Below, in pieces: positions 10,996 to 59,512 of a DNA stretch of 64,000 nt. Location: positions 1 to 64,000 of the forward strand of contig CAVOVB010000007.1 of the NCBI GenBank assembly GCA_963699755.1, in the 5' to 3' direction. Every line of letters begins with the position of its first letter. Position 1 is the stretch's first letter. A program made the translations under genes and the position numbers. The DNA is from an uncultured delta proteobacterium. Lineage in GTDB: Bacteria; Myxococcota_A; Polyangia; Polyangiales; Houyiibacteriaceae. The notes beneath the pieces were generated by a model that saw only the letters and a program-made list of their open reading frames with translations, had not been told where the DNA came from and did no database searches.

Positions 10996-11012
10996 GCGTT
11001 TGTTTGCCGATC
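10996..11012 (+). other. Putative oriIS end of the IS91-family element
   Basis: GCGTTTGTTTGCCGATC about 100 bp downstream of the transposase; resembles the right end of the 100-bp repeats. Confidence 0.5.
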
Positions 11013-11107
11013 TCTTAGCCCGTCGGGCTCAAGGTGAGCGCCGAATTGCGCGGTACTGAATGTTATGTCGCGCCGGACGTGAACCTCAAAGGGCGTGTGT
11101 AGTTACT
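11011..11107 (+). repeat. dif-like repeat R1 (last bases displaced to 12482-12486 by an IS1111 insertion)
   Basis: TCTCTTAGCCCGTCGGGCT...TTGCGCGGTAC TGAATG TTATGTCGCGC (11046-11073)...GCGTGTGTAGTTACT. Confidence 0.9.
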
Positions 11108-11129
11108 TCTGTGAAGCGGCGTCCCCCGT

Positions 11130-11300
11130 CAAGTTCAAAGTTGCGAGTTGCGGACTCGTCTTGGCGAGATGGTCGTCATCCTTCTGTTCGCGCTCGACAA
11201 AGGCAGCTTGTGGCTGCGGCGCATGGTGGGATTCGAGGGGCGGCCGGCGCCATCTATCTGTCGGCTCTGCGAAGGTAGCCAGTAGCTACGACGCGCTCGA
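11130..11300 (-). ncRNA. Putative seek/bridge RNA of the IS1111 element (boundaries approximate)
   Basis: Downstream non-coding end contains GTAGCTACT (11289-11281) and CAGATAG (11260-11254) matching the target, and ACAGAAG / CATCT matching the circle junction. Confidence 0.7.
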
Positions 11301-11364
11301 CCCCCACAATTTTGGACTCATCGCGGCAACACGTGTGTGTCAGGTCTCCTTGGGTCGCTTTGGG

Positions 11365-12393
11365 TTACGCAGCATGCGCTGCAGAAGTTTTTGTGTTTCC
11401 GAAGTCGGTGCCATCACGCCACATCGCAAACAAGATACCGGCGAGCTTTCGCGCCAAGGCGACTGCGGCGATGCGCTTGCCTCGCCGAAGCGCGATCCGG
11501 TGGGCCCATGCGCGAAGCGCTTCGGTGTCTGCGCGTCGGCTTCGCAGCAATTGCCACGAGGCCTCGACCAAGAGCGCACGCATACGTCGATTGCCCGCTT
11601 TGGTGATGTGGCCGCGGTGTTGTTTCTCTCCGCTGCTGGGCTCCCGTGGCACCAGTCCTAGATAGGCACGCACTTGTTTGGCGTTGTCGAAGCGCTCGAC
11701 GCGGTCGACCGTGGCCAGAAATGAAATCGCGGTGACCGGACCCACGCCTGCTGCGGTGCACAGTCGCTTGGCCACTTCATGGGTCTTGGCTTGTTGCTCG
11801 AGCGCCTTGTCCATCGCCTTGAGCTCTGCGGTGACCGAGCCCATCACCCCGAGCAACGGCGCCATCTGGGCCCTGAGGCCGTCGGGCAACTCGAGCTCGT
11901 CCACGCGCTCTGAAAACGTGGCGGCTCCGCCGCTCCGCATTCGGTAGCCTTGCTGCCTCAGCAATGCGCGAATCAGACTGATGTGCCGAGTCCGCGTGTG
12001 TACCAGCGCTTCGCGTACGGCCACCTGGGCTCGAAGCGCACGGCTGCGATCCGAGCTCCGATGCGCCGGGCCATATGCGCTGAGCTCGCAGGCTTCTCAA
12101 AGGGCCCGTGCATCGCGTCGGTCGGTTTTCACTTTGCGGCTTCGCTGGGCGTACATCGGCGCAAAATTCGGGTCCGCCACGATGACCTCGTGCCCGAGCT
12201 CTTCCAAACATCGCGCCACCCACTCGCTTTCGGTCGACGACTCGACCACGATGCGGGCTCTCGGGCGTTTCTCAAGCAACTTCGCAAAGCTCTCGCGGTC
12301 GGTGCGGACCCGCCGTTCGATAAGCTGCCCTGTTTCGGTCCGGATACAGACTTGGCTTGCATTCTTGTGCACGTCGATTCCAATGTGGTCCAT
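11365..12393 (-). pseudogene. IS110/IS1111 transposase with an in-frame TGA at 12097-12099
   Basis: MDHIGIDVHK, KTDRRDA, YLGLVPREPSSG, ITKAGN; both ORF pieces are in the same frame. Confidence 0.88.
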
Positions 12394-12486
12394 GGCTGGC
12401 CTCCACTGCGGCTCTTGACCGCGTTTTGTTGTGGGGGCATCTTGCCACCACGTCGTGGTGGCCAGCCGCTTCATCTCATCTATCTG

Positions 12487-12582
12487 CATCACGATGGCCA
12501 AGCCACTGCAGGACCACAGCTGCCGCGCCGTACGAAATCGATGCGGAGACACAAGGATGGGAATCGTTTGGATCACCTTCAT
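12487..12582 (-). pseudogene. Fragment of a second IS110-type transposase
   Basis: SPHRFRTARQLWSCSGLAIV; ends at the right boundary of R1. Confidence 0.55.
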
Positions 12583-12689
12583 CGAAGCGTGGTCCGACCC
12601 CTGGGCAGAGGGGCCCGACTATTACGCACGCGGCTGCGGATGGGGCGAGTAGCCGACACCGAAGCGCTCAGCGCAGCGGCAGTGAGAGC

Positions 12690-13133
12690 TCATCGAGTTC
12701 CGCCTTGCACCGGAGGGAGAGATCCTCGGGCTTCATCCATCTCGAAGCGATAGCAACACGGACCCGCGTCATGCGCCCAATGGCTTGCCGGCGCGTAGCG
12801 AGACGCTCGGTCGAAGCTGGCGCAAAGCTCGTAGGATCGCCCTTCGAGAATGCGATACGAGTACCGCTCGTTGCGCGCGGGGTCCCGTGGGATCGACTCC
12901 CAACCCGGCTGGTCCTCGAGCACGTCCAGGCTTTCGGGCAATGCCTGGTGTCCGTTCCAGTAGACGTCGATACGATTTGCGATGCTTTGCAGATCGTCGA
13001 CGCGTCGCTCGTCGAGCTTCAGCAACCTCTGCTCGGTCGGTGAACCCATCAACCAGAGCCCTCCTGCGACGACCGCGATCACCACGGCGGCGACCGCAGC
13101 GAGCAACGCGGAGCTCGCCCCGATGCGCGTCAT
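12690..13133 (-). CDS. Membrane-anchored hypothetical protein (pilin-like), partner of DUF5671
   Basis: N-terminal TM, GSPTEQRLLKLDERRVDDL, PRDP..YxY...YELCASF; coupled to the upstream gene. Confidence 0.7.
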   Translation of the reverse strand: MTRIGASSALLAAVAAVVIAVVAGGLWLMGSPTEQRLLKLDERRVDDLQSIANRIDVYWNGHQALPESLDVLEDQPGWESIPRDPARNERYSYRILEGRSYELCASFDRASRYAPASHWAHDAGPCCYRFEMDEARGSLPPVQGGTR

Positions 13134-13774
13134 GGCTCTCTTTCCTCTTTGCGCAGGTCATAGAGGTAATAGGCGAATACGACACCCGCGATGAGGGCGA
13201 CGGTGAGGATCTTGAGAATGAAGCGCACCGTCAGCTCACCCCCCAATAGATTGTAAACGAGAGTTGTCACGTCGCCGATCAAGACTGCGGCCGCGAAGAA
13301 CAGAGTCGCGTACGTGAGCCACCTGCGGATGCCCGAAGCGCGCTTCATCGGGTCTTTTCGGATCGCGCGGCTGACGAGATACGACACGAGGGAGAATACT
13401 GGAAAGGCCACAATCAACGCCGAGACGGACCAACGCAGACTTTGTGATCTCCACTCGTCGCCAGCCGTGCCCAACGCTGGATCGGGAAACACGCGATCGA
13501 TGATTTGGAACACCACGGCTCCCAGGTTGTAGGCGGTCAGGAGTAAGGTGGTGAAAAGAACGAGATAGAGAAAAGCCTCTTGCGCGGAAGTCGAGGGCTT
13601 GGGCTTCGGCACCGGCAGCTCGAACGCGACTTCACCATAAGCGGCCAAGGCGTGGTTGATCTGCTCTTCGGACCATCCCGCAGCTTGGAGCACCTTTTCA
13701 ATCTCGGGACGCGGGGCACCGCGGGCCAACGCGTGCCGCACGAACTTCTGCAGGTCTTCATCGACTCGAGCCAT
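13130..13774 (-). CDS. DUF5671-type membrane protein
   Basis: SAQEAFLYLVLF, LRWSVSALIVAFPVF, RRWLTYATLF, LLGGELTVRF. Confidence 0.75.
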   Translation of the reverse strand: MARVDEDLQKFVRHALARGAPRPEIEKVLQAAGWSEEQINHALAAYGEVAFELPVPKPKPSTSAQEAFLYLVLFTTLLLTAYNLGAVVFQIIDRVFPDPALGTAGDEWRSQSLRWSVSALIVAFPVFSLVSYLVSRAIRKDPMKRASGIRRWLTYATLFFAAAVLIGDVTTLVYNLLGGELTVRFILKILTVALIAGVVFAYYLYDLRKEEREP

Positions 13775-14114
13775 GGTGACCTCCGGTCTTGTCGTTCATG
13801 CTGGGCTTTCACAGCAAAGCTACTGGAAGGCTCGATTCACGCTAGCACTGCCGCCAATAGCTTCAATGCGGCCTCGTCGAGCTGGAACGATACGGGGCGC
13901 GGGTTCAAGGGCGCTCGCGCCGTGGTGGTACCGCCGTCCGCAACCGGCGACGCACAAGCGCTTCGCGCGTCGCCGCAAAGGCTGCGTTGTCGGCGGGGCT
14001 TGTCGTTGTGCGGCCTTCGAGCACCGAGTCGTTCGGAGGGGATGCGCGATCGGCACGAGGTTTGCTTAATGGCCAGAGAACTATGGACTCAACGACCTCG
14101 AGGCGCCTGCGCGT

Positions 14115-14243
14115 TTCGCGCTTGCGTTGATGATGACGATTCTCGGTTGCGGGGACGCGGGGGAGGAACTGCCCACGATTGCGGTGTCCGTTTCACCCGA
14201 GACTGCAAGCTGCAAGGTCGGCGAATCCTGCGAGCTCTCTTAG
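14115..14243 (+). pseudogene. Lipoprotein N-terminal fragment cut at R2
   Basis: FALALMMTILGCGDAGEELPTIAVSVSPETASCKVGESCE followed by a repeat-derived stop. Confidence 0.55.
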
Positions 14244-14335
14244 CCCATCGGGCTCAATCAAAGCACCGAATTGCGCGGTACTAGATCTTATGTCGCCAGT
14301 GACGCGAACCGGAGAGGGCTTTTGTAGTTACTATC
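14234..14335 (+). repeat. dif-like repeat R2 (complete)
   Basis: GCTCTCTTAGCCCATCGGGCT...TTGCGCGGTAC TAGATC TTATGTCGCCA (14271-14298)...GCTTTTGTAGTTACTATC. Confidence 0.92.
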
Positions 14336-14523
14336 TGCCCTCAGAGGAGAACACACCACGTGAGGCTGCGCTTAACTCCGGGCCAGGCGAACCAGCTCTA
14401 CTGGATGTCCCGCATCGCTCCAGGTTTCATCCATGCACAGCTCGAGAAGGGCTCGAAGGCAATGGTTCCGCAGCCTGAGTCAGCGTGAACGGAGCGTGTC
14501 GAGCCTAGGCGTGGGATCGCATC

Positions 14524-15213
14524 ATGGGGAAGTCTTGGACGATCACTCTGATGGAGAGGCTTTCTGCGGGTTTCGAAGCGCATGCCGATCCCGAGCGCGC
14601 AGGGCCGATGGCGGCCTACATGAAGGGTCGGTTCCCGTTCCTGGGGATCCCGGCCACCGAAAGGCGGGAGCTTCAACGCCGTGCCTGGAAGGGTTTACCG
14701 AAGCCGTCGGAGCGTGAGCTCGGAGCAGTGGCGCGCGCCAGCTGGCGCGAGCGAGAGCGCGAGTATCAGTACTTTGGTGCGGACTACGTTCGGGCTCACG
14801 TCGCGCGCTGCTCGGCGGCCTTCCTCGATAACCTCGAGACCCTGATCACGACGAAATCATGGTGGGACACCGTCGACCTCTTGGCAACGCGTGGCGTCGG
14901 CACGCTCGGGCAGAAGCATCCGAGCGTGAGGCGCGCGATGGACACCTGGATCGAGAGCGACAACGTTTGGCTCGCCCGAACCGCGCTCTTGTTCCAGCTC
15001 ACCTACAAGAGCGACACCGACGCGACCAAGCTTTTCCGTTATTGCGAGCAACGCATGAACGACGAGAGCTTCTTCATTCGCAAAGCCATGGGCTGGGCGC
15101 TTCGCGAGTATTCGAAAACCGACGCGCCCGCCGTGCGCGGATTCGTTCACGCGCACCGCGATTCCCTGTCGACTCTGACGCGTCGCGAAGCGCTCAAGTG
15201 GCTCGAACGATAG
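14524..15213 (+). CDS. DNA alkylation repair protein (AlkD-like)
   Basis: MAAYMKGRFPFLGI, EREYQY, KSWWDTVD, FFIRKAMGWALREYSK. Confidence 0.88.
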   Translation: MGKSWTITLMERLSAGFEAHADPERAGPMAAYMKGRFPFLGIPATERRELQRRAWKGLPKPSERELGAVARASWREREREYQYFGADYVRAHVARCSAAFLDNLETLITTKSWWDTVDLLATRGVGTLGQKHPSVRRAMDTWIESDNVWLARTALLFQLTYKSDTDATKLFRYCEQRMNDESFFIRKAMGWALREYSKTDAPAVRGFVHAHRDSLSTLTRREALKWLER

Positions 15214-15490
15214 CACGTTGGGCCAACAGGAACCTACCAGCGCAGCATCGGCAGTGGCCGCCACGGCTGCTTCAGGGCACCCGAGAGGAGCGTTCGGCAC
15301 ACCAAGCCGCGAAAACCGCACATCCGGTATGACGATCGGGCCTCGCGGCAAAGCGCGAAGGGAACCCCCGTCCCAGGCACCGCAAAGAGGTCGACCAGAT
15401 GGGCGCGCCGGAAGGGCTCGACGACACCCGCATCCTCGCGACGGTACGGTGTGAGCTTGTGATGGAAGCCGATCATGCGGCTGACGGACG

Positions 15491-15589
15491 GCTCTCTTAG
15501 CCCGTCGGGATTCCGATGAGCGCCCAATTTCGCGGCATCAGATCCTATGTCGCCAGTGACGCGAACTGGAGAGGGCTTTTGTAGTTACT
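15491..15589 (+). repeat. dif-like repeat R3 (degenerate core)
   Basis: GCTCTCTTAGCCCGTCGGG...TTTCGCGGCAT CAGATC CTATGTCGCCA (15528-15555)...GCTTTTGTAGTTACT. Confidence 0.88.
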
Positions 15590-15609
15590 TCTGTGAAGCG
15601 GCGTCCCCC
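15590..15609 (-). mobile_element. 20-bp remnant of the same IS1111 right end, at the same position in R3
   Basis: TCTGTGAAGCGGCGTCCCCC identical to 11108-11127. Confidence 0.8.
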
Positions 15610-15674
15610 TCACCACCGCAGCCGTTGTCAACCAAGGTGTTCGTCACCGTCAGGTACCCCTAATTTTGGATGCC

Positions 15675-15775
15675 GCTCTCTTAGCCCGTCGGGCTCAAGG
15701 TGAGCGCCGAATTGCGCGGTACTGAATCTTATGTCGCCTGGGTCGCGAACCGCAAAGGGCGTTTATGTCGACTAT
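15675..15775 (+). repeat. dif-like repeat R4 (complete)
   Basis: TTGCGCGGTAC TGAATC TTATGTCGCCT (15712-15739); ends GCGTTTATGTCGACTAT. Confidence 0.92.
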
Positions 15776-15996
15776 GCTCCTGATCTTTGTTGTATGCTCG
15801 TCCGAACTCGCGCGTTGTTTCCCACAGCGACCGTTCGTCGACCGCCGCGGCGCGGCCGGCGCGTGCGCGAGGCGGGTAAACAATTACGTATATACAACTG
15901 TGTGGGGGCGCGAGACGTTCTGTGATCTGGAGCAGGGCGACAAAGACGCCCTGCATCAGAACGAGAGTTTGCGTTCAGATTCCAAGGAGGCACGTC

Positions 15997-16431
15997 ATGC
16001 AGAAATGTATATCAATAAGCTCCGCGCTCCTCGCGACGGCGATGATGGTTACGCTGTCGTTCGGATGCGGAGAAGGCATCGAGGGCGAGACGGGTAGTCA
16101 GTCAGCAGGACTCAACGCCGGAGAGTGCAACGCCATCGTGGCCACGAACCTTCAGGCCGCACAACGCTGTGCTCGCGGTGAATGCGGGGACGCGGAGTGC
16201 ACCGATGTAGGGGGAGCCTTTTTCGACTTCTTCGTGAACAATCCGGAGTGCGCGGGCTTCTTCGAGACCGGCGATGTCAACGGGCTTCCAGGCAACGCCT
16301 CGATCCATCCGCAAACCGGCGAGGCCAAGCACATTGCAGACGTGATCTGCAGCGCAGTCCTCCAGTGCGGCCTCTGTCCCGGGGCACCGCCTGGCGTGTG
16401 CACAGCCGACTGCGCAGAAACAGACGGATAG
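15997..16431 (+). CDS. Small Cys-rich lipoprotein
   Basis: AAGGAGG RBS, ATG 15997, lipobox SFGC. Confidence 0.75.
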   Translation: MQKCISISSALLATAMMVTLSFGCGEGIEGETGSQSAGLNAGECNAIVATNLQAAQRCARGECGDAECTDVGGAFFDFFVNNPECAGFFETGDVNGLPGNASIHPQTGEAKHIADVICSAVLQCGLCPGAPPGVCTADCAETDG

Positions 16432-16504
16432 GCACGGCCGGGCTCCCTCATCCCGAGCGAGATTGGATGGCTGGAGCGACCTGAAAACGACCGGTCATTG
16501 CTGT

Positions 16505-16539
16505 GCAAAGCCTCACCTCACGGTGGGGCTTTTGCTTTT
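16505..16539 (+). terminator. Rho-independent terminator
   Basis: AAAGCCTCACC-TCAC-GGTGGGGCTTT followed by a T-rich tail. Confidence 0.7.
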
Positions 16540-16571
16540 CTCCGCGCGAATGGATCCAGGTCGACCTCCCC

Positions 16572-16636
16572 AAAACGAAGAAACCCGGGGGTCATGTCAC
16601 CCCCGGGAATCCTTGGCGCGGCAGACGAGACTCGAA
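16572..16636 (-). other. tRNA 3' fragment (Asp-like; attR) followed by a terminator
   Basis: Minus strand TTCGAGTCTCGTCTGCCGCGCCA (16636-16614), then CCCGGGGGT...ACCCCCGGG hairpin and T tract. Confidence 0.65.
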
Positions 16637-17082
16637 TCCGGCCGAGCCGCAGAATCCCTCAGAAAAACGAGGGGAAAATGAAACAGCCAAACGCAAGACC
16701 TTGCGGAAAGGTGAGGCTGAGTGCGCGAAAGTTGGTAGGTGTGCGAATGGGTTTGTGCGCTTGGGCGACGAGGTCGACGTCGCCGTCGAGCATCCGGAAT
16801 TGAGCGCAGCTCAGGCCGCCCGAGCAGCCGCCTTCGACGCTTTTGCCCGGCTCGCACTGAGCTACTTCGACAACCCTTCCGACGAGCTACGCACCGCGTG
16901 TGAAGCCGCCGCGCTGGTCGTCCGCGCCGCGCAGAAGGTCGGCTAGCTGGGCCTACGGCTGCGCCTCAAACGCCCCGATGTCCCACCCATCGTGCAGGCA
17001 GCGAGGCTAAGGGTTAATCAACGGCGAGTGATGAACAGCTGCGGCGTTGGCTTCACTGCGCACAATCGGCACATGTCGGACA

Positions 17083-17128: not shown

Positions 17129-18376
17129 GGCGGTCTCAAGCGGTGGACGCAACAGCGTTGAATATCTCGCACGGTTTCATCCATTGAAGGGTTTGTCGAG
17201 GCCGCGCATTGAGCTCCCTTGCGACAGCGTTCAACTCGGTCTGAGTGTGTCGACTCAGATCAGTGGATTTTGGAAAATACTGTCGTAGCAAACCGTTTGT
17301 GTTTTCGTTGCTCCCTCGCTGCCATGGCGCATGCGGGTCGCAGAAGAAGACGCTGACGTTTGTGGCCACCGTGAATTGCGCATGCCCGGCCATCTCTTTG
17401 CCTTGATCCCACGTGAGGGTTTTTCGTAGTTGCGGGGGCAGCTGAATCACCTCACGTGTGAGGGCGCAACGCACCTGCTCGGCACGACGCCCATCGGGTA
17501 GGCGCACGAGCAGGAGATAACGACTTGTCCGTTCGACCAGCGTCGCGATGGCAGACTTTCCGCCTTTGCCAATGATCAAATCGCCTTCCCAATGGCCTGG
17601 GACGGCACGGTCCTCGGCTTCGGGCGGACGGTCGCTGATCATCACCATGTCGGGCAATTGACCTTGCCGCTCGGTTCGTCGATGAGGACGCCGTCGAGCA
17701 CGGCCCGTTCGTAAGCACGTGGTGAGTTCCTTGCGTAACGCGCCTCTGGCTTGGATAAACAGGGATTGATAGATCGTTTCGTGAGAGATGCGCATGCTGA
17801 GGTCCTCGGGATAGTCCAGGACGAGCCGTGCGACTATCTGCTGCGGCGACCAGCGTTGTTCGAGTCGCCTTTCCACCTCTTTTCGGAGCCTTGGATGGGC
17901 TGTGAGCTTGCCCGCCCTGGGACGAAGATTTCGACGTGCGGCGCTTTGCTCCGCAGACCAGGCACGATACGTCGTGCGGCTTCCATTCCCAGCGACCTCT
18001 CTCGATATGGTCGACGGCGCACGACCAAGGTGGCTCGCTATCTGCCGAAACGAGTCTCCGGCAACCAATCGTCGAGAGATCTCCTCCCGCTCGGCACACG
18101 ACAGCCGATGCGGGGAGCGAGGTCGAGGCCTGCGACGGCGTTTAGCCTTGCGACCTCGAGCGAGCAGTCTCTGTATCGACTTTGTTGAACATCCAATGGC
18201 CGCGGCCGCTCTTTCGTACGATTCGCCGGCCCCAAGACGACAGAGTACTTCTTCGTGCTCCGCTCCCGTTAGACGAATGCCTCGTTTCACTTCTCGACGC
18301 TTCATCGCTCAGCCTCCTTGGTGCGATTTTGGCTATCACACCGTCATGGCTGTTGCGTCGATGGCTTGAGACCGCC
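17129..18376 (-). mobile_element. IS30-family element, copy 1 (1248 bp; transposase 17136-18305)
   Basis: IRs GGCGGTCTCAAG; WSPQQI, SHETIY, GHWEGDLI, WQRGSNENTNGLLRQYFPK; no flanking DR. Confidence 0.93.
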
Positions 18377-20192: not shown

Positions 20193-20199
20193 GAGGACC

Positions 20200-29553: not shown

Positions 29554-29645
29554 CGCTGCGATACCGGTCGCGGGTTCGATGACCGAATACATTCGGGCCT
29601 CTTGGCCCATCGGATCAAGAGAAGCGCCGAATTGCGCGGTACTAG

Positions 29646-31160
29646 TCAAGATGTAGCGACCGACTCCGATCGCAGACCGTAGTTTACGCTGCGAATCGGA
29701 AAAGACCGTAGCGCAGAGCTACATACGAAGGGAGTCGGTCATGTCGAAGAATACAGCAAGCTGGACGTACGTGGGACTGGATGTGCACGCGGACACGATC
29801 ACAGTGGCGGTGGCGGAAGGAAGCAGCCGTGGTCGTGGTCGCGGCGTAGGGACGATTCCGAATCAACCCGATGCGATTCGCAAGGCGATGAAGAAGCTCG
29901 GCAGGGCGAAGTCGCTTCGCGTTTGCTACGAGGCGGGACCGACCGGCTATGCGTTGTACTGGCAGCTGAACAAGATGGGCCTCGCGTGCGAGGTGATTGC
30001 GCCCACGTTGGTGCCGGTGCGGGCAGGCGATCGTGTCAAGACTGACAAGCGCGATGCGCTCAAGCTGGCGCAGGCTTACCGGGCAGGCGAACTGACTCCG
30101 ATCTTTGTGCCCGATGCCGAACACCAGGCGTTGCGCGATTTGGTTCGTGCCCGTGAGGCGGCCAAGAAAGATCAACTGCGTGCTCGGCACCGGCTGGGGA
30201 AATTCTTGCTTCGCCTGGGCCGCCGTCGCGATACCCAGAGCAACGCCTGGGGCCAAGCGCATTGGCGATGGCTTGATTCGCAGGTGTTCGACCATACGGC
30301 GCAAGAGGAGGCGTTTGTGGACTACAAAAACGAAGTGCAGCATGCGACCGAGCGCGTGGCGCGGCTCGACAAAGCGATTGACCGCGCGGTCGAGCAGGCG
30401 CCTCCACGGATGCAAGAGCTGGTCCTGGCCCTGCAAAGCCTTCGCGGGGTGGCGATGCTTACCGCGGTGACCGTGGTGAGCGAGGTCGGTTCGTTTGAGC
30501 GATTTCCCTCCGCCCAAAAGTTCATGGCCTACCTGGGTTTGGTCCCGAGCGAACACTCCAGTGGCGGCCGCCGGCACCAAGGTGGCATCACCAAGACGGG
30601 CAATGCACATCTTCGTCGGGTCTTGGGGGAGTCGGCGTTCTGTGGACGTCTTCGGCCTCGCCGCAGTCCAAGCCTCAAGCGGCGTCAGCAAGGGCAGAGT
30701 CAAGCCATTGTCGACATGGCGTGGGAGGCGCAAAAGCGTCTCTACCGAAAACACGGGCGAATGAGGATCCGAGCCAAGTCTCACCAGGTCACGGTGACCG
30801 CGATGAGTCGAGAGCTCGCCGGGTTTGTGTGGGCCGTCGGGCGGCAGCGCGAAGCCGAGATGGACAAGGAAGGGCAACCTGTTGAACGGTTCAAAGAAGC
30901 TGGCAAGCATCCCCACGGGAAGGACAAGCCTCGAAACATTTATGCGATAGGCACGGCCGTGCCCAACTCGCGCCACTAGTCTGAGCGAGCTCCCGACGGA
31001 TGATGACCATGTCGGCGGCCTTCGGGCCGATCCACGAATATCAGATTGATCAACCGTCGCTTTGTTCGCCAGCTTCTTTGAGCCGTTCAACCAACTACAA
31101 AGGACACTAAGGACACAAAGGAAACCCCATCATCTCTGTTGACCGGTCGCTACATATCAG
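29646..31160 (+). mobile_element. IS110 family, IS1111-type element (transposase 29741-30979)
   Basis: YVGLDVH, YEAGPTG, KTDKRDA, YLGLVPSEHSSG; subterminal IRs ATGTAGCGACCG / CGGTCGCTACAT; AG core at both junctions. Confidence 0.92.
30925..31065 (+). ncRNA. Putative seek/bridge RNA of the second IS1111 (boundaries approximate)
   Basis: AACATTT (30935-41) and ACTAG (30975-9) around a hairpin match the target; ATATCAG (31038-44) and TTGA (31046-9) match the circle junction. Confidence 0.6.
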
Positions 31161-31273
31161 ATGTTATGTCGCCTGGGGCGCGAACCTCAAAGGGCGTTCG
31201 TTTCGACTATCAGCCCTTCGCGCCCGTGTACGACATCCTCCAACGCGAACGATGCTCGTGAAAGGTTTTTAGC

Positions 31274-39935: not shown

Positions 39936-40307
39936 AGTCCCCCGACTGCAACGACAACCCCCCGTGAACCGCAAGGTTTCGGGACGCTAGCGGCGATACG
40001 CGGCGTCACAGAACGTCAGGAAACGACGGCTACACCGTCCTGATGACACCAAGCGTGACACCGCAGCTATTGCTCCGACGAACCGACGCGCGTGCGCCTA
40101 CGGCTGCAGCTCGAGCGCACCGACGTCGCACGCGCACAGTAGTCATTACTTCGTCTGGCCTACGACAGTGGGATACCGGTCGTCGAGGTCGTCGCGTGAC
40201 GAGATCTGTTCGGTGATTCCGGTCTCCAACGAATAGGCCCTAATCACGCCACTGTCAGCGTAGACGATGTACTTCTCTTAGCCCATCGGAATCAAGAGAA
40301 GCGCCGA

Positions 40308-43150
40308 TGTCAAAACCAGGCGTTGGTGTCCGGTGGTTGTGCCGGCGGTCTCAAGCGGTGGACGCAACAGCGTTGAATATCTCGCACGGTTTCATCCATT
40401 GAAGGGTTTGTCGAGGCCGCGCATTGAGCTCCCTTGCGACAGCGTTCAACTCGGTCTGAGTGTGTCGACTCAGATCAGTGGATTTTGGAAAATACTGTCG
40501 TAGCAAACCGTTTGTGTTTTCGTTGCTCCCTCGCTGCCATGGCGCATGCGGGTCGCAGAAGAAGACGCTGACGTTTGTGGCCACCGTGAATTGCGCATGC
40601 CCGGCCATCTCTTTGCCTTGATCCCACGTGAGGGTTTTTCGTAGTTGCGGGGGCAGCTGAATCACCTCACGTGTGAGGGCGCAACGCACCTGCTCGGCAC
40701 GACGCCCATCGGGTAGGCGCACGAGCAGGAGATAACGACTTGTCCGTTCGACCAGCGTCGCGATGGCAGACTTTCCGCCTTTGCCAATGATCAAATCGCC
40801 TTCCCAATGGCCTGGGACGGCACGGTCCTCGGCTTCGGGCGGACGGTCGCTGATCATCACCATGTCGGGCAATTGACCTTGCCGCTCGGTTCGTCGATGA
40901 GGACGCCGTCGAGCACGGCCCGTTCGTAAGCACGTGGTGAGTTCCTTGCGTAACGCGCCTCTGGCTTGGATAAACAGGGATTGATAGATCGTTTCGTGAG
41001 AGATGCGCATGCTGAGGTCCTCGGGATAGTCCAGGACGAGCCGTGCGACTATCTGCTGCGGCGACCAGCGTTGTTCGAGTCGCCTTTCCACCTCTTTTCG
41101 GAGCCTTGGATGGGCTGTGAGCTTGCCCGCCCTGGGACGAAGATTTCGACGTGCGGCGCTTTGCTCCGCAGACCAGGCACGATACGTCGTGCGGCTTCCA
41201 TTCCCAGCGACCTCTCTCGATATGGTCGACGGCGCACGACCAAGGTGGCTCGCTATCTGCCGAAACGAGTCTCCGGCAACCAATCGTCGAGAGATCTCCT
41301 CCCGCTCGGCACACGACAGCCGATGCGGGGAGCGAGGTCGAGGCCTGCGACGGCGTTTAGCCTTGCGACCTCGAGCGAGCAGTCTCTGTATCGACTTTGT
41401 TGAACATCCAATGGCCGCGGCCGCTCTTTCGTACGATTCGCCGGCCCCAAGACGACAGAGTACTTCTTCGTGCTCCGCTCCCGTTAGACGAATGCCTCGT
41501 TTCACTTCTCGACGCTTCATCGCTCAGCCTCCTTGGTGCGATTTTGGCTATCACACCGTCATGGCTGTTGCGTCGATGGCTTGAGACCGCCGCCAGTTAG
41601 AAATGTCCGGCACCGAATGGGGACCATGGGGCAGGGAGCCTGCAGCGGACAGGGCGGCGAGCGGCCTGGAGAACCTGGTGAATCGCGGGGAACGTCACCG
41701 TGGGGCAAGACGGCAGATGGCTTGAGAAGGCGTCGGCAGGCATCGCGCAGGGTCGCCGTTCTAAGGACCTGGAGGCGGCAACCGGTCGGCGAAGCGGTCG
41801 CGGACGATGCGCTTTTCACGCTTGGTCTTGGCGGACCGGACGAGCTCTTGCTCCTCTTGTTGTTGCTGCTTGCGAATCTCGGTGAGCGCACCGCTCAAGA
41901 GCTTGTTCTCGACAATCGATCCCTGGGTCACGCAGCCGTCCTTGTGAAAGGGGCGAGCAGCAAGCGGGACGCCGCGGTATCGAATCGATACGCCGCCATC
42001 CTCGTACTCGACGACGGTGACGCACTTCTTGGCCGCGGCTTTGGCCTCCGGGGTCGGCTCGAGCAGGTACATCGTACGCTTGTGGTGCACGGTGAGCTGA
42101 GCCGTCACGCGCCGCTCTTCTTGCCACGTAAAGATGTCGTCGAGACGGTCGCGCTCGAGCAAGGGTCGGTGCGCATCGTGGTTGTTTCGGGCCGGCCGAG
42201 CGAAGCGCCGATTGTAGTCCTCGATGAACTCGGGCAAGTACCGATTGGCGTCGTCCATGGTGCAGATACCCCGCAGCTGAAGCTCCTTGACGAGCCGGTC
42301 TTGAAGCGTTTGATGCGCACGCTCGACCCGGCCTTTGGCGGCTGGGGTATTGGCGCAGATGACGTCGATATTGAGGTCGCTCATGGCGCGGCCAAACTGC
42401 GTGAAGCCGTCGCCGGCCTTGGGGGCCTTGGCATTGACGCGGAACACCGCGGCTTTGTCGCTGTACAACGCCACCGGTTTTCCGTGGCGCTCGAGATAAT
42501 TTCGAGTTGCCTCGAAGTAGCTGAACGCCGATTCCGATTCACACATGTGCAGCTCCATGAGCATGCCGGTGGCGTCGTCCACGTAGACGAGCAGCACGGC
42601 ACGAGGACCACGGTCTTCAAACCAGGGATGGTCGCAACCGTCGATCTGAATGAGCTCGCCGTAGCAATCCCGTCGATGCCGCGGCTGCTGGACACGTTTC
42701 TTTCGCTCGGCGCGGGTCATCCACAGACCTTCGTCGATCATCCATTGGCGCACCGTTTCGACCGACATCGGGAAACCGTGAAGCTCCGTGAGCTTCTCGT
42801 GCGCCAACGTGGGTCCGAAATCCGAGTAGTGGCGTCGGATCATCCCGAGCGCCGTCCCTCGAATCACGTCGTCGTAGCGATTGTTTCCTGGGCTGCCGCG
42901 CTTCTTGGAAGCCAGACCGGCGGCACCGTCGCGCTTGTAGGACGCGTAGAGCCGCTCGATCTGCCGGACGCTTAGCTGCAGGGTCAATGCCGCTTGTCGC
43001 TGCGTCATGCGACGCTCGGCGATTTGCCGCATCACTTCGGCACGCTCGATCTCGCGCCGGCTCATGAGAACGAGCTCCGTATCCATGGGTGGGGTCTGAA
43101 CCCGACATTTGAATCTGGCACAGACCCGACATTTCTATATTGGCCCTACA
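40308..43150 (-). mobile_element. IS1202-family (ISNCY-type) element, transposase 41761-43086, with IS30 inserted in its right end
   Basis: TGT...ACA ends with repeated AAATGTC motifs; GELIQIDG, VYVDDAT, LYSDK, AKGRVERAHQTLQDRL. Confidence 0.85.
40344..41591 (-). mobile_element. IS30-family element, copy 2 (transposase 40351-41520)
   Basis: Same 1248-bp length and identical protein to copy 1; 3-bp DR GCC. Confidence 0.95.
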
Positions 43151-43216
43151 GCTCAACTGCGCAGAACTAATCGTTATGTCGCGTGGCTGGCGGAGCAGAC
43201 AGCGCGTTTGTTCTTG

Positions 43217-43777
43217 CTAGGCTCCGAGCTCGGTCGGCATCTCGATGCGGAGCTCGACCACGTCAGGCCAAGCGGCGTTGTCGGGATCGAAGTAGTGCGT
43301 GGGTCGCTTCACCTTCAGCACTCGGGTTCCGATGTCTCGAGGCACGGTGTGCGCTCCGGGCCAGTCCTTGGCGTAGCGAACTGCCCCCGCTTCGACGGGG
43401 TTACGGATGAGGTAGGCGAGTGCTTCAATCGTGGCCTCGGGGGTCAGAAGAGCATGCTGCCCCGTGCTCCGCTTGTCGAATACCTCACCGGGCCACCCGC
43501 GAAGGGCCTTGGTCGTCAGGGCCAACAGCCGGTGAAACTCCTGCAGAAACCGCGGCAGTACTCCGCGCACGTCGGTTACCACTTCGTGCGAATGGGTGCT
43601 CATCAAGCAGCCCGAGTGCACGAGCACGTCGAAGCGCTGCGCGGCGAGGCCAAGGCAGTACCAGTAGCACTGCTCGAGCTCGCGAGCTTGGTCGGGATTG
43701 AGGAGGAAGTAGCGCCGGGTGGTACGCCGTGAGAGGGCCCAGGTCGTGCCCCGCTCGATGATGCGTTGTCGCGTCAT
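43217..43777 (-). pseudogene. RAYT-like Y1 HUH transposase, probably 3'-truncated at R7
   Basis: SRRTTRRYFLL, CLMSTHSHEV, YLIRNPVEAG..WPG; its stop codon lies in the repeat end. Confidence 0.75.
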
Positions 43778-46270: not shown

Positions 46271-46372
46271 GCTCTCTTAGCCCATCGGGCTCACGTTGAG
46301 AGCTCAATTGCGCAGAACTAGCTCGTCATGTCGACTTGCAGCGCACTTCGTTTCGCTTTTGGAGCGCCGAAC
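46271..46372 (+). repeat. dif-like repeat R8 (7-nt spacer)
   Basis: GCTCTCTTAGCCCATCGGGCT..TTGCGCAGAAC TAGCTCG TCATGTCGACT (46308-46336)..GCTTTTGGAGCGCCGAAC. Confidence 0.82.
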
Positions 46373-46399
46373 TGCATTTCCACTCCATCTCGCTGAATC

Positions 46400-47647
46400 T
46401 CACAACTCCCTTTCCTCGCTGGACCGGTCGCGTTCCCGCTTTCGTCGATGTAGAAGGGGAATCGCGCGAGCGTCGCGCTCGGCGGCGCGGCTGGCGAAGA
46501 AATGGCGCCAGGTGCCTGGATGCCAGGTCTTTTGAATCGCCGAGCGTTGGATCGCGAGCTTTCGCTTGAGGGCTCGGGTTTCGATGGTTTGTTGAAACGC
46601 GAGTTGTCGTCGGAGCTGTTTTCGGTCGCGCCCGGCCACGGGTAGTGCGGCGATGACGCTCCGCTGAAGGTGATACTTTCGCTTGAGCTGTTCCCGCCCG
46701 CGAAAGGCAGAGTTGCGATAGCTGCTCCATGCCTCCAGGCGCTGCGTGCGCGCTCGCTCGAGGCTCTGTTCGTACTCCTTCCACAGGCTCTGGGGCGCCC
46801 GAGCCGGCATCGGCGAGTACCGATGGGGCGCTTGGTGTGCGACTTCCCGCTGTCGTTCCGATGCCGGCTGGAACGCTCCGAGCCGTTTGCAGAGCTGCGC
46901 CTTGCTCAACTCTCGAGCCACAAACGAGGCCATCACACGAACGCCGCGCTCTGCATCCTCGAATACCAGCCCGTTGCCGTGTGGCCGAATCGCGACGCCG
47001 TAACGGCCACAGATGGCGTGAACGTCTTCCCAGCTTCGTAGCTCGGTTGTCTCCAAAGCAGGCCGAAGCTTTTCTCGGGCCCAGCGCGCGAAGCTGTCGA
47101 CACCATGGTGGGCTTCGCAATCTGCGGCTCGTTGCGGGACCCTCTCGCGCTCGCGCGCCCTCGACCGAAGGGGCGTCAGGCCGAGCTCCCGCTCGAGGGC
47201 CCGAGCCCCGGTGAAGAGCTCTTGGTGGTCCCAGGCAGGCGAGTGAATCCGAAAGGTCTCTGGATGGATCTTGTTGATCGCGACGTGGATGTGCTCGTGA
47301 TCGGTGTCGCTGTGACGCGCTGCGATGTACTGGTGTTCGGAGAACCCCAGCGTATCCACGAGCCTTTCCACAATCTGCTGAAGCTCTTTTCGTTCGAGGC
47401 TCCGATCATCGGGGTGAAGTGAGATGAGCAAGTGATACGTGCGCTTGCTTCCGGCGCGGGTGTTCTGCGCTTGGATGGCGTCGACGAGCTTGCAGGCGAG
47501 CTCGAGGTCGTCGCGCCCGGTGACGCCGGGAAGGTTCGCTGAGAGGAACCACGTGGCGCGTGGCTCAGCCTCTCGCCCCCGGATGTAGCGCGCCAGGTGC
47601 CGGAACCCGCGGTTCGACATTGATTCCCTTTGATGCCGGACGATCAC
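46400..47647 (-). CDS. MOBP/TraI-like relaxase
   Basis: FRHLARYI, TYHLLISLHP, HQYIAARHSDTDHEHIHVAINKIHP. Confidence 0.9.
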   Translation of the reverse strand: MIVRHQRESMSNRGFRHLARYIRGREAEPRATWFLSANLPGVTGRDDLELACKLVDAIQAQNTRAGSKRTYHLLISLHPDDRSLERKELQQIVERLVDTLGFSEHQYIAARHSDTDHEHIHVAINKIHPETFRIHSPAWDHQELFTGARALERELGLTPLRSRARERERVPQRAADCEAHHGVDSFARWAREKLRPALETTELRSWEDVHAICGRYGVAIRPHGNGLVFEDAERGVRVMASFVARELSKAQLCKRLGAFQPASERQREVAHQAPHRYSPMPARAPQSLWKEYEQSLERARTQRLEAWSSYRNSAFRGREQLKRKYHLQRSVIAALPVAGRDRKQLRRQLAFQQTIETRALKRKLAIQRSAIQKTWHPGTWRHFFASRAAERDARAIPLLHRRKRERDRSSEEREL

Positions 47648-47991
47648 CGCTGCCCTGCCAGACGATTCACCGCGCGGCGGACGTCCATGACCGAATCAAT
47701 CAGCTCGAGGTTCAGTCGATGAGAAGTCGACCGGTCCGAAACGCCGTCACGAGTGGCGAACTTGAGTAGCCCACCGATGCGGCTGAGGTTGGCATGGACC
47801 CGGGAGACTTCTATGAGTGCTTGAGCGTCGATCGTGCTCTTCAAGCGCGCGCCTCGGAGACAGGAGCGGATGACCGCGCCGCGGGAGCAGCTGGTCTGGT
47901 GAGCCAGCGCATCCAGGCGAGCAAGATCATCTTCGTCGATCCGAACCGAGATCACATGGGACTTTGGCTTGCAGGCGCGACTGCCCGTCAC
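47644..47991 (-). CDS. mobC: MobC/TraJ-like ribbon-helix-helix relaxosome protein
   Basis: VISVRIDE..; ANLSRIGGLLK; overlaps the relaxase start. Confidence 0.8.
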   Translation of the reverse strand: MTGSRACKPKSHVISVRIDEDDLARLDALAHQTSCSRGAVIRSCLRGARLKSTIDAQALIEVSRVHANLSRIGGLLKFATRDGVSDRSTSHRLNLELIDSVMDVRRAVNRLAGQR

Positions 47992-48374: not shown

Positions 48375-48400
48375 TGATCCCGAAGGCTCGGTGTCGGCTA

Positions 48401-48451
48401 AGGATCTAGTGAGGTATCACCCGTGGAGGTTCGAGTCCTCTCTTCCGCACC
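48401..48451 (+). other. 3' half of tRNA-Leu (att site, copy 2)
   Basis: Near-identical to 8016-8066. Confidence 0.8.
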
Positions 48452-48792: not shown

Positions 48793-48799
48793 GGCCTAG

Positions 48800-57221: not shown

Positions 57222-57252
57222 GCTCTCTTAGCCCATCGAGCTCAAGCTGAGC
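57222..57252 (+). repeat. Left part of the repeat only (R9)
   Basis: GCTCTCTTAGCCCATCGAGCTCAAGCTGAGC, no dif core. Confidence 0.8.
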
Positions 57253-57589
57253 AATGCGATCATCACCGGCCAAAGCCCGGCCATCAGGGCCGCGGCACCA
57301 ATCAAGGTGTAGCTCCTGGTCTTGCGGGGTTAAGTCATCGATGTGTGGTTCGCACGCAGCCTCGGGAGAGTTCAAGCGTACCCGAAAGACGCAAGTGCTG
57401 CCGGGGAAGCAGAGCGAAGGGGGCGGGCGGGCGGGCGGTGCAACCAAGACCTGCAAAGGCCCGGTCCAAAGACCGCGCATTTCGAGCCGTCGGCAACGCA
57501 CGTAAGGATCCGAGCTCTGTCCGCTTGGTCGCCTTCGCGATCATCGCGACGGACGAAGTCTTGAGGAACGACTGGGGCATCATGCAGTG

Positions 57590-57760
57590 CTGGGCGGAAC
57601 CAATTTACGGGCAAGGCTCGAGCCGCGAGCAGGTCGCCCTCACACCGCGGTTCCTCGGCCTCTCGGTCGTCATCATGAACAGCCTCGCTCCCATCCACTG
57701 GCAGAACCTCGTCAACTTCGGCGTGGTGCCGCTCGACTTCATCGACGACGCGGAGCTGAC
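57590..57760 (+). pseudogene. Aconitate hydratase C-terminal fragment
   Basis: YGQGSSREQVALTPRFLG..IHWQNLVNFGVVPL. Confidence 0.75.
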
Positions 57761-58015
57761 GGAAAGCCCCTCCGCCTCCAACACAGGCTGTCTCGCCGCC
57801 AGCGCGAAGCATGCTCGAGGGCGGGCTCATCCCTTGGCTTCGCGCGCGCCTTCGAGACCAAGCTTGGAGTCCCTTGCTTCCGCTTTCGGCCCTAAACCGA
57901 CACGATGCTCGTTAGGGCAGGAACGCCACGGGGCGCTGCTGAAAACCGGTTGCAGTGGCCGAGCTCTTGCGGGATCATGAGAGCCTAATACGGGCCGTTC
58001 GTCAGGAGGTTTGCC

Positions 58016-59293
58016 ATGATGCCACGCGTATCGGGTGTGCTCTTAGTTGCGGCTACGGTCGCATTCGTTTCGGGGTTGGTCCTGGCGCAGGCGGCGCCCA
58101 AGCAGGTCGTCAAGCCGCCGATCGCCAAAGCCTGGATCGACGTCGCAACCTTCTCCGGTATGGGGATGGGTGGCGCGGACATGATGAACCAGACGCTTGG
58201 CGCTGCCATGGGTGGTGGGCGAGGTGGCAAGGCCGAGTTCGGCTACACCGAACATGGGCCAGGTGGTCGGTGGATGGACGTGACCCTCTACACCAGCGGC
58301 AACGCCAAACTGACCGAGGCCTTGCAGAAGGTGCCGGCGGCCACCGGTCTCGCGCCGACGCTCAAGCTCCAGACGCCGGAGAAACCCAAACCCGCCCCGA
58401 AGTCCGATGACGAGCCTGCGGAATGGGACTACCAGAAGCCCAAGGGCAAGCTCGTGATGTACTGGGGCTGCTCCAAAACCGTCAGGCCCGGCCAACCCAA
58501 GGTCGTGGACCTCGGCACCGCCACAGTCCGCGACATGGCGAAGTTCTTCGAGTCGCGTCGGGCCACCCAGCGTGGTGCGCATGCAGCCGCGGGCCGGCCG
58601 ATTTGGCCGAGCCGCCAAGACAAGCGCGCGCTCGGGGAACGTGCGTCGATCGCTGGCGAGCACGCGTTCGTTGCCGCGGGCGTTCCCGAGAGCCTCAAGT
58701 TCACGATCCCTGCTGCGCAAGACATCATGGCGCCCATGGAGGTTCAGCAGAGCGACGCCGGCAGCGCGCTTGCGTTTGAGTGGCAGGCAGTGCCTCATAC
58801 GCGTGCATACTTCCTCGGAACCATGGGCCCGTTGCCCGGCGGCAAGGAGGGGATGGTGATCTGGACCTCGAGTGAGCTCCCCGAGAGCGGGTTTGGGTTG
58901 TTCGACTACCAGACCAACGTCGCGGTGGACACCTGGCTCAAGGACAAGGTGCTGCTGCCACCATCGACGACCCGGTGCGCGGTGCCGAAGGAGGCCGCCG
59001 GCGAGGGCAGCATGTTGCGCGCGATCGCCTATGGCACGGAGCTCGATCTGGCGTACCCGCCCCGGCCGAAGGACCCGAAGATCGCTTGGGAGCCCGAATG
59101 GAGAGTGCAGATCCGGGTGAAGTCGATGAGTACGAGCATCGTAGGCATGGAGGGAATGGGCAACATGCCGTCAATAGACGAAGAGCTGCCGGACACAGAG
59201 GATACAGGGGCCCCACCGCCCGAGTCCGAGCCCGGAAAGAACAAACGAAAGAGATTCAATCCCTTCGATGCGGCGAAGCAGAGCCGGCCCTGA
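58016..59293 (+). CDS. Secreted hypothetical protein
   Basis: AGGAGG RBS, signal peptide, PKGKLVMYWGC. Confidence 0.8.
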   Translation: MMPRVSGVLLVAATVAFVSGLVLAQAAPKQVVKPPIAKAWIDVATFSGMGMGGADMMNQTLGAAMGGGRGGKAEFGYTEHGPGGRWMDVTLYTSGNAKLTEALQKVPAATGLAPTLKLQTPEKPKPAPKSDDEPAEWDYQKPKGKLVMYWGCSKTVRPGQPKVVDLGTATVRDMAKFFESRRATQRGAHAAAGRPIWPSRQDKRALGERASIAGEHAFVAAGVPESLKFTIPAAQDIMAPMEVQQSDAGSALAFEWQAVPHTRAYFLGTMGPLPGGKEGMVIWTSSELPESGFGLFDYQTNVAVDTWLKDKVLLPPSTTRCAVPKEAAGEGSMLRAIAYGTELDLAYPPRPKDPKIAWEPEWRVQIRVKSMSTSIVGMEGMGNMPSIDEELPDTEDTGAPPPESEPGKNKRKRFNPFDAAKQSRP

Positions 59294-59379
59294 GAACGGC
59301 ACCCCGCGGTCTGCGTCGACCCGGGGTCCATACCTATGCAAACCGGGCAGGAACGCCAGAGCGCCCTTGGTGTGGTCAA

Positions 59380-59443
59380 CTGCGCAGAAGTAGACCTCAT
59401 GTCGACTTGCGGAGCACCCGAGACCGCCTTTGTCTCCCGTATT
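59380..59443 (+). repeat. dif-like core and right part only (R10)
   Basis: CTGCGCAGAAG TAGACC TCATGTCGACT (59380-59407)..GCCTTTGTCTCCCGTATT. Confidence 0.75.
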
Positions 59444-59496
59444 CGCGGTCCGAATCGCGTGGTACGCCTTATCCGTCTACTTTCGATGTCCGGGAA

Positions 59497-59512
59497 GCTC
59501 TCTTAGCCCATC
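59497..59512 (+). repeat. Left end only (R11), cut by an IS remnant
   Basis: GCTCTCTTAGCCCATC. Confidence 0.75.

What the first reader, a model, noticed from the sequence alone, without database searches (positions are those of the whole stretch)
11011..59512. Array of co-oriented ~100-bp elements with dif-like Xer sites dividing ~48 kb into cargo modules
Seen: 11 full or partial copies on one strand (11011, 14234, 15491, 15675, 22216, 29597, 40274, 46271, 57222, 59380, 59497). Nine contain an 11-6-11 core (R8 has a 7-nt spacer), e.g. TTGCGCGGTAC-TAGATC-TTATGTCGCCA. Functionally unrelated cargo lies between copies: DUF5671 pair; AlkD; TetR/SRPBCC/methyltransferase; oxidoreductase-OsmC-SARP; Mo enzyme-Kef-cysD; ceramidase; relaxase-PhlG-ATPase. 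Known: E. coli dif is GGTGCGCATAA-TGTATA-TTATGTTAAAT, with TTATGT in the XerD arm, and pdif modules and IMEX use host XerCD. Inference: a XerCD-assembled, integron-like module array. No xer gene or integron integrase is in the window, and I do not know this element as described.
Basis: partly seen in the sequence, partly recalled or inferred. Interest (0 to 1): 0.92.

Follow-up and report, generated by a model that had tools for sequence, protein, structure and literature searches.

The report
Transposon ends carrying host recombination sites
The repeats are real: each is the tail end of a rolling-circle jumping gene carrying a copy of the host's own chromosome-resolution site, and the junctions suggest the jumping gene cuts out neighbouring genes as cassettes that the host's recombinase strings into arrays, much like an integron built from other enzymes.

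Summary
The repeats are real: 11 elements in 13 pieces, all on +. They are not free-standing pdif sites. Each ~105-nt element is the terminal oriIS end of an ISCR/IS91-type HUH transposon; copy 11011 still follows its gene (9416-10894). There are 57 profile hits genome-wide; the element is in 48 of 54 congeners and 0 of 33 other-genus genomes.

The core matches the host dif (located here) in register 11-7/8-11, not 11-6-11, with a good XerC arm and a weak XerD arm. IS1202-type IS ends sit exactly 5 bp from that arm at 9 cores and 7 dif sites. Left and right halves are unlinked across the XerC-arm/spacer border, and the right half travels with downstream cargo. Left junctions follow cargo-derived GC (216 of 311); 0 of 14 testable copies are simple insertions. 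One metagenome contig is 4 kb of this window bounded by the same element at both ends.

Best model (inferred, untested): the transposase captures downstream DNA as one-site circles and XerC(D) chains them into arrays inside tRNA-integrated mobilizable islands. The scan's earlier notes reported ISCR ends with dif mimics in four other genomes; eight literature searches found no description.

The parts
7621..8976 (-). Island (tRNA-Leu) tyrosine integrase reading frame, internally deleted, reading through the att site
   Evidence: Pfam PF00589; 58% identical to paralogue C1:1566314 with about 65 aa missing
8008..8066 (+). 3' half of tRNA-Leu = left att site of the mobilizable island
   Evidence: 53 nt identical to the tRNA-Leu at the very end of contig C5
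9179..9225 (+). Left (terIS-type) end of the ISCR-like element, with hairpin
   Evidence: Same start point in several unrelated contexts; minus-strand hairpin z -2.3
9416..10894 (+). ISCR/IS91-type HUH transposase, 492 aa, open frame; Zn motif, HUH motif at 187, single-Tyr motif at 325
   Evidence: Pfam Y2_Tnp and Zn_Tnp_IS91; NCBIfam ISCR clade Ia E 3e-106, below its cut-off; 40-42% identical to ISCR1/ISVsa3; motifs
10996..11010 (+). Second, internal oriIS-like motif ending where all solo copies begin (candidate internal nick site)
   Evidence: Conserved in 25 transposase-UTR-linked copies; its role as a nick site is inferred
11011..11109 (+). Element 1, transposase-linked; XerC arm 11045-11055, 7-nt spacer, XerD-like arm 11063-11073; oriIS interrupted by an IS110-family element
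   Evidence: IS110 domains at 11365-12582
14236..14338 (+). Element 2, solo, complete
15493..15591 (+). Element 3, solo; oriIS followed by a remnant IS110 end
   Evidence: AlkD cargo continues natively past this junction in L385
15677..15779 (+). Element 4, solo, complete
   Evidence: right junction against native L418
22218..22320 (+). Element 5, solo, complete
29598..31214 (+). Element 6, split in its spacer by an IS110-family element (about 29647-31157; transposase 29741-30979)
   Evidence: the same IS lies in the same spacer position at other copies
40274..43224 (+). Element 7, split by an IS1202-type element (40308-43150, transposase 41761-43086 minus, IS30 nested at 40344-41592) whose left end lies 5 bp from the XerC arm at 43156
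46273..46375 (+). Element 8, relaxase-linked type: 8-nt spacer, decayed oriIS; right border of the array
46400..47991 (-). MobC-like and MobP-type relaxase genes of the island
   Evidence: Pfam Relaxase and NikA-like; NCBIfam TraI_MobP_relax
48393..48451 (+). Second tRNA-Leu 3' half = right att site; followed by remnants of a next integrase and terIS end (48513-48795)
57224..57253 (+). Element 9, left part only, joined after GC inside an aconitase-like gene fragment
59378..59446 (+). Element 10, core and decayed right part
59499..59512 (+). Element 11, first ~14 nt only
   Evidence: family D13
12604..16564 (-). Segment found in metagenome contig L275 (99.8% identical), bounded at both ends by one and the same other copy of the element: a captured module or circle

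Best explanation
A two-enzyme cassette system. SHOWN by sequence: the repeat is the last ~105 nt of an ISCR-type HUH transposon and holds a dif-like site (XerC arm, 7-8 nt spacer, weak XerD arm) between an internal cut point and oriIS. Solo copies begin precisely at that point after a cargo-derived (G)C and end with an element-borne tetramer. Halves reassort at the XerC-arm/spacer border. INFERRED: (1) the transposon inserts next to host DNA; (2) the transposase cuts at the internal point and at a GC site in the DNA downstream of oriIS and closes a circle of element end plus cargo, carrying one dif-like site and no transposase; (3) host XerC, probably by the XerC-first, FtsK-independent route, crosses this site with a resident copy and adds the module in direct orientation; (4) arrays grow between the transposase-linked copy and a relaxase-linked copy inside tRNA-integrated mobilizable islands, which carry them between cells. 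Other IS then use the sites as landing pads.
For: Transposase linkage: 25 of 297 left-intact unique copies follow the transposase 3' UTR. The terminal motif is that of fetched ISCR2 and ISCR1, at 198 nt from the stop versus 214 and 211 nt. Host dif located: one match in G000, matches in 27 of 31 genomes (exactly one in 25), KOPS-like polarity flips there from 14:1 to 3:14; xerC and xerD present. IS1202-type left ends lie exactly 5 bp from the arm at 9 cores and 7 dif sites, the rule described in PMC10132070 and 10.1101/2022.12.17.520857. Linkage in 197 unique elements: distance correlation left-right 0.04 versus 0.39 within the right half and 0.17 within the left; distance-matched excess information across the core 0.00-0.01 versus 0.03-0.08 within the right half at 6-45 nt. 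Among 22 relaxase-linked copies, right halves are alike (17.9 versus 30.7 differences) and left halves are not (9.1 versus 9.1). Junctions: GC precedes 216 of 311 left ends (background 10.6%); native homologues diverge right after it (30/32 match at -1, 10/32 at +1) and lack the terminal tetramer (3-7/15 versus 10-14/15 beyond it). 0 of 14 testable copies are simple insertions. L275 is a captured window segment with a 96-nt exact terminal repeat inside the element. The integrase-transposase-elements-relaxase order recurs in several genomes.
Against: No binding, cleavage or recombination was measured. The XerD arm is weak (5.2 versus 17.4 bits), the spacer is 7-8 nt rather than 6, and the XerC arm lacks the inner bases of dif in most copies. 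Few variable columns lie near the core (10 cross-core pairs within 20 nt), so the crossover is placed only between column 36 and the spacer; gene conversion could mimic it. Only 3 of 21 relaxase-linked copies share an identical left half with a copy in their own genome, and 2 are identical in both halves to a copy in another genome. 10 of 41 neighbours in G000 and 29 of 153 in relatives are inverted. L275 may be a contig between two identical repeats rather than a circle. Laid contigs from four runs showed no clean skip of a module at two cores. Capture of downstream DNA runs opposite to the polarity established for IS91 (PMC13181058).
Confidence: 0.6

Rival explanations
1. Transposase-only cassettes. 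The ISCR transposase both captures and inserts element-plus-cargo units at GC sites near other copies. The dif-like site is bound by XerC but serves only the transposon's own upkeep (resolving rolling-circle multimers), and the left-right decoupling comes from gene conversion or occasional recombination.
For: Some copies are inserted at a GC inside another copy's left end, which needs no Xer (L17, L309). Runs of identical elements flank different cargo (4 pairs). Inverted neighbours exist.
Against: Whole-unit movement predicts linkage across the element, which is absent. Relaxase-linked right halves carry left halves drawn from the general pool. The conserved stretch shared across the core is under 20 nt, short for homologous recombination (established knowledge).
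Confidence: 0.25
2. Passive scars. The copies are left-over ISCR ends from one-ended transposition and deletion in an IS-rich island; the dif likeness is incidental and there is no cassette traffic.
For: Several copies are truncated or interrupted by IS. The islands are full of IS. Remnant ISCR ends with an extra oriIS are reported (PMC12772301 citing ISCR28 work).
Against: One sharp left boundary with a GC rule in 216 of 311 copies. Core arms are 89-100% conserved at most columns while flanks vary. IS1202-type targeting in exact register. Relaxase-linked copies keep the core while oriIS decays.
Confidence: 0.08
3. Free-standing pdif/xrs module array assembled by XerCD alone, or a 105-nt MITE.
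For: dif-like core, crossovers at the core, co-orientation in the window.
Against: The element is the end of a transposon; the spacer is 7-8 nt; sites are in direct, not inverted, order; no empty site among 172 solo copies and 0 of 14 simple insertions.
Confidence: 0.07

Closest known systems
ISCR elements (ISCR1, ISCR2/ISVsa3) and IS91 family
   Same: HUH transposase (40-42% identity), terIS hairpin, oriIS motif about 200 nt past the stop, element-borne terminal tetramer, acquired genes lying beyond oriIS; remnant ends with an extra oriIS are reported for ISCR28 (via PMC12772301).
   Different: dif-like core inside the 3' end (not detected in ISCR1 or ISCR2, scores 3.4 and 5.8); dozens of solo ends with one precise internal start; left junction with a GC rule; cassette re-entry by site-specific exchange rather than by the homologous recombination proposed for ISCR1 units (PMC7707992).
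pdif/xrs modules of Acinetobacter
   Same: Cargo between dif-like sites; IS1202 (ISAba32/ISAjo2-type) insertion 5 bp from the XerC arm.
   Different: 7-8 nt spacer, weak XerD arm, mostly direct orientation, conserved 35-40 nt flanks that are transposon ends, chromosomal islands.
IMEX (CTX, VGJ, TLC) and cer-type sites
   Same: HUH/rolling-circle element with a dif-like site, good XerC arm and non-canonical XerD arm, suited to XerC-first recombination (10.1101/2021.09.09.459576).
   Different: Does not sit at host dif; targets its own sister sites; not a phage or plasmid.
Integrons
   Same: Works like one: arrays of unrelated single-site cassettes, mostly co-oriented, anchored next to an enzyme gene.
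   Different: No IntI and no attC hairpin; cassettes are cut from genomic DNA in mid-gene or mid-IS and hold one to several genes.

Membership tests
ISCR / IS91 family | HUH transposase with Zn-binding and Y2_Tnp domains | tested here: met
   Pfam above cut-offs; NCBIfam ISCR clade Ia best hit but below its 925-bit cut-off
ISCR / IS91 family | oriIS motif about 200 nt downstream of the transposase stop | tested here: met
   Same motif in fetched ISCR1 and ISCR2
ISCR / IS91 family | terIS with subterminal palindrome upstream of the gene | tested here: met
   Fixed start point in varied contexts; hairpin z -2.3 on the minus strand, -1.0 on the plus strand
ISCR / IS91 family | Target tetranucleotide of host origin next to oriIS (as IS91) | tested here: not met
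   The tetramer after oriIS is absent from native homologues, so it is element-borne; the two ISCR2 contexts likewise share it
ISCR / IS91 family | Rolling-circle transposition | not testable with these tools
   Needs an assay
pdif / dif modules | 11-6-11 site | tested here: not met
   Length classes for 7 and 8 nt hold 130 and 36 of 187 full copies, 10 are one base shorter; register test
pdif / dif modules | Modules flanked by inversely repeated sites | tested here: not met
   All copies in the window are direct; 31/41 and 124/153 neighbours are direct
pdif / dif modules | IS1202-type IS left end 5 bp from the XerC arm | tested here: met
   9 cores and 7 host dif sites
pdif / dif modules | Recombination by XerCD | not testable with these tools
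   Only indirect: linkage break at the core
IMEX | Integration at the host dif | tested here: not met
   dif is at C3:687011; the nearest element hit on C3 is at 476 kb
IMEX | dif-like site with conserved XerC arm and deviant XerD arm | tested here: met
   8.0 of 15.8 and 5.2 of 17.4 bits
Integron | IntI integrase | tested here: not met
   Window recombinase scores 33 versus cut-off 265 on TIGR02249
Integron | attC bottom-strand hairpin | tested here: not met
   z -0.1 to -0.9 for three copies on both strands
MITE | Simple insertion with an empty site | tested here: not met
   0 of 14; none among 172 solo copies

The most novel reading that the evidence does not exclude
A previously undescribed integron-like system: an ISCR transposase manufactures gene cassettes from any DNA downstream of its end, by cutting at an internal origin and at a GC site, and the host's XerC assembles them into arrays in mobilizable islands. 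dif-like sites in the ends of 13 of 50 distant ISCR-like elements suggest the design is spread across phyla, and the downstream-capture polarity could explain why acquired genes lie beyond oriIS of ISCR1.
Probability: 0.45. Interest if true: 0.92.

Novelty: new variant of a known kind. Interest (0 to 1): 0.78.

Why it matters
How gene cassettes are first made is an open question for integrons and dif modules, and how ISCR elements move genes lying beyond oriIS has rested on untested models. Here hundreds of natural junctions give base-precise rules (internal start, GC cut, element-borne tetramer, crossover at the XerC side) and a candidate intermediate, so both steps can be tested directly with one transposase, host XerC/XerD and a 105-nt substrate. 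It also links two lineages of mobile DNA, HUH transposons and Xer-exploiting elements, that the papers searched treat separately.

Tried and rejected
Rfam: no family. ARAGORN: no full tRNA in the window. attC-like folding: rejected. GC skew was too weak to place the terminus; KOPS-like polarity was used instead. Viral contigs: 0 exact matches. The first metagenome pattern had a spacing slip and found nothing; it was repeated. Empty-site search: two hits, both an internal duplication of one contig, not empty sites. I first read the tetramer after oriIS as a host target and the element as a mini-IS91/MITE; native homologues rejected this. The linkage run used a mis-registered set of 55 elements and is discarded in favour; the IS-end scan printed 27 rows, of which I dropped 10 (terIS hairpin or chance matches at offsets 0, 2, 9) and 1 doubtful row at 6 bp. 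Laid contigs gave only short-sided, ambiguous joints between copies, neither showing nor excluding module loss; they did show an IS1202-type end at a further core. Canonical IS91/IS1294 ends could not be fetched for comparison. Homologues of the oxidoreductase-OsmC-SARP cluster in 23 loci had no element within about 1.5 kb, so that cargo is ordinary gene content elsewhere. No structure or complex prediction was run.
Full report
OBSERVATION. The repeat is at all listed positions on the plus strand. A profile iterated from window copies gives 12 hits in the window, 57 in the genome and none on reversed sequence. Two listed copies are left halves: 29597 is split in its spacer by an IS110-family element and resumes at 31158; 40274 is split by an IS1202-type element and resumes at 43151. 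The window thus holds 11 elements in 13 pieces. Elsewhere the copies lie in clusters on both strands, mostly near tRNA-linked integrases. The element is in 48 of 54 other genomes of the genus, 0 of 33 genomes of other genera in the family and 0 of 12 from other families of the order. The closest transposases lie in records titled Polyangiales, Myxococcales or Deltaproteobacteria; runs holding the DNA are sediment metagenomes.

THE ELEMENT IS A TRANSPOSON END. ORF 9416-10894 is an ISCR/IS91-type HUH transposase. Its stop is followed by 115 nt of conserved UTR and then copy 11011, and the same linkage recurs in this genome and in relatives. Of 297 unique copies with an intact left end, 25 follow this UTR and 272 are solo (loci were chosen because they hold the element or the transposase, so this is not a genome-wide ratio). 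The right end carries the terminal motif of fetched ISCR2 and ISCR1, at 198 nt from the stop versus 214 and 211 nt. A hairpin-bearing left end starts at 9179.

THE CORE. The host dif candidate is at C3:687011. It matches in 27 of 31 genomes, exactly once in 25, with no match for the reversed control, and KOPS-like octamers flip polarity there (14:1 in the 87 kb before, 3:14 after). xerD passes its NCBIfam cut-off and xerC is just under. Aligned to dif, the element core is an 11-nt XerC arm, a 7-nt (relaxase-linked copies mostly 8-nt) spacer and an arm that keeps only the inner XerD bases. Independent support comes from a natural probe. IS1202-family elements insert their left end 5 bp from XerC arms (PMC10132070, passages; 10.1101/2022.12.17.520857, parts 1-3 of 4). 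The window's ISNCY-type IS obeys this, and such ends lie at exactly 5 bp at 9 element cores and 7 host dif sites (11 of 27 printed rows dropped as described under Tried and rejected). That targeting reflects XerC binding is those papers' proposal, not a proven mechanism.

JUNCTION RULES. Solo copies begin at one point inside the parent UTR, just after a second oriIS-like motif. GC precedes 216 of 311 left ends against a background of 10.6%, where parents mostly have GG. In 32 left junctions with a native homologue (at least 80 nt, at least 78% identity) the match is 30/32 at the last cargo base and 10/32 one base into the element, so the GC is cargo-derived. In 15 right junctions the terminal tetramer matches the native DNA in only 3-7 of 15 per position and the next bases in 10-14 of 15, so it is element-borne, and the native upstream shows no GC rule. 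In 0 of 14 copies with both ends testable does the native continuation of the left flank equal the right flank, and no empty site was found for 172 solo copies. The two junctions of one copy therefore come from different events, and the copies are module joints, not MITE insertions. Contig L275 (4157 nt) is window 12604-16564 at 99.8% identity, bounded at both ends by one other copy in the opposite orientation, with both junctions following these rules and a 96-nt exact terminal repeat. It is either a circle or a unit between identical repeats. Four further pairs of near-identical neighbours flank unrelated cargo.

CROSSOVER AT THE CORE. In 150 and then 197 unique full elements, linkage is seen within the left part and within the right part but not across the XerC-arm/spacer border (correlation 0.04 versus 0.17 and 0.39; cross-core excess information 0.00-0.01 at every distance). 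Among 22 relaxase-linked copies the right halves and 8-nt spacer (19 of 22) are inherited with the downstream gene, while the left halves are no more alike than random copies. Against: few informative columns near the core; only 3 of 21 share an identical left half with a copy in their own genome, and 2 are identical in both halves across genomes; 10 of 41 and 29 of 153 neighbours are inverted (split halves and overlapping loci inflate the co-oriented count); laid contigs showed no clean module skip.

PLATFORM. Window 8008-48451 lies between two tRNA-Leu 3' halves, with an integrase at the left and relaxase plus mobC at the right; the full tRNA ends contig C5. The order integrase, transposase, elements, relaxase-linked element, relaxase recurs at C1:1.94 Mb and in L021/L022 and L061, and partly in L026, L068, L070, L072 and L224. 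The cargo is ordinary gene content elsewhere: 23 loci with the OsmC-SARP cluster have no element nearby, and junctions often cut genes or IS.

MECHANISM. Shown: anatomy, junction rules, linkage break. Inferred: transposase cuts at the internal point and at a downstream GC give a one-site circle; XerC-first exchange, as described for IMEX and cer (10.1101/2021.09.09.459576, passages), adds it to a resident site; the island's relaxase and integrase move the array. The capture polarity is opposite to the bottom-strand pathway shown for IS91 (PMC13181058, passages); a two-step bottom-strand route cannot be excluded but predicts simple insertions, which were not found.

BREADTH. Among 50 non-redundant ISCR-like loci outside the genus, 13 have a dif-like site scoring 10 bits or more in the 240 nt after the stop, versus 0 of 49 upstream controls, and 17 beat all 30 shuffles. 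Both orientations occur; ISCR1 and ISCR2 have none detectable. The matrix was built from 18 dif sites of this order only.

KNOWN AND NEW. Eight literature searches returned no paper placing an Xer site in an IS91/ISCR end; the library lacks most subscription journals, and I read no supplements. PMC12772301 (passages) cites work on ISCR28 in which a remnant with an extra oriIS sandwiches a gene; that work itself was not seen. PMC7707992 (passages) gives the homologous-recombination model for ISCR1 units. PMC13393415: passages. PMC12907356: listing and a term search with no hits. Four earlier scan notes (read after my) reached the same 'ISCR end with dif mimic' reading in other genomes; they are unchecked and are not used as support. 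The single-tyrosine ISCR motif, the KOPS octamer and the length needed for homologous recombination are recalled knowledge.

VERDICT. The parts belong to known kinds; their combination into a capture-and-array system is not described in what I could search. New variant of a known kind, interest 0.78; if both enzymatic steps are confirmed, it is a new cassette system.

Noticed in passing
G000 C3:686980-687038 (L441); L149, L153, L163, L165, L166, L169: An IS1202-type left end lies 5 bp from the chromosomal dif in this genome and six relatives, extending dif hunting by this family to this order.
   Followed up: partly
window 29647-31157: An IS110-family element with subterminal inverted repeats sits in the spacer of the dif-like core at several copies (also C7:425 kb, C1:391 kb, C1:432 kb, L379): a candidate RNA-guided IS targeting this Xer site.
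   Followed up: partly
window 11110-12600 and 15592: A second IS110-family element (broken into two frames) inserts inside oriIS at several copies and would disable that end.
   Followed up: partly
window 17129-18380 and 40344-41592: Identical IS30-family copies; one is nested near the right end of the IS1202-type element, as also on C11 and in laid contigs.
   Followed up: no
window 43217-43819: REP-associated tyrosine transposase-like frame truncated at element 7; an 80-90% similar segment is in many congeners.
   Followed up: no
window 16560-16700: tRNA-like remnant resembling the tRNA-Asp region at C3:495.5 kb, suggesting a captured piece of another island end.
   Followed up: no
window 4698-6089: Minus-strand gene with about 51-residue repeats (153-156 nt period), no Pfam hit; probably a beta-propeller.
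   Followed up: no
L100, L111, L113, L116, L118, L124: Distant ISCR-like ends with the dif-like site in the opposite orientation; in L111, L113, L116, L118 and L124 it follows an internal motif and a GC-rich hairpin, a similar layout to the element.
   Followed up: partly
G000 C1:1586.7 kb and C7:432.5 kb; tRNA clusters at C1:1660 kb and C7:341 kb: Identical element and a repeated tRNA cluster on two contigs; with 9% estimated contamination the assembly may mix strains, so genome-wide counts may be somewhat inflated.
   Followed up: no
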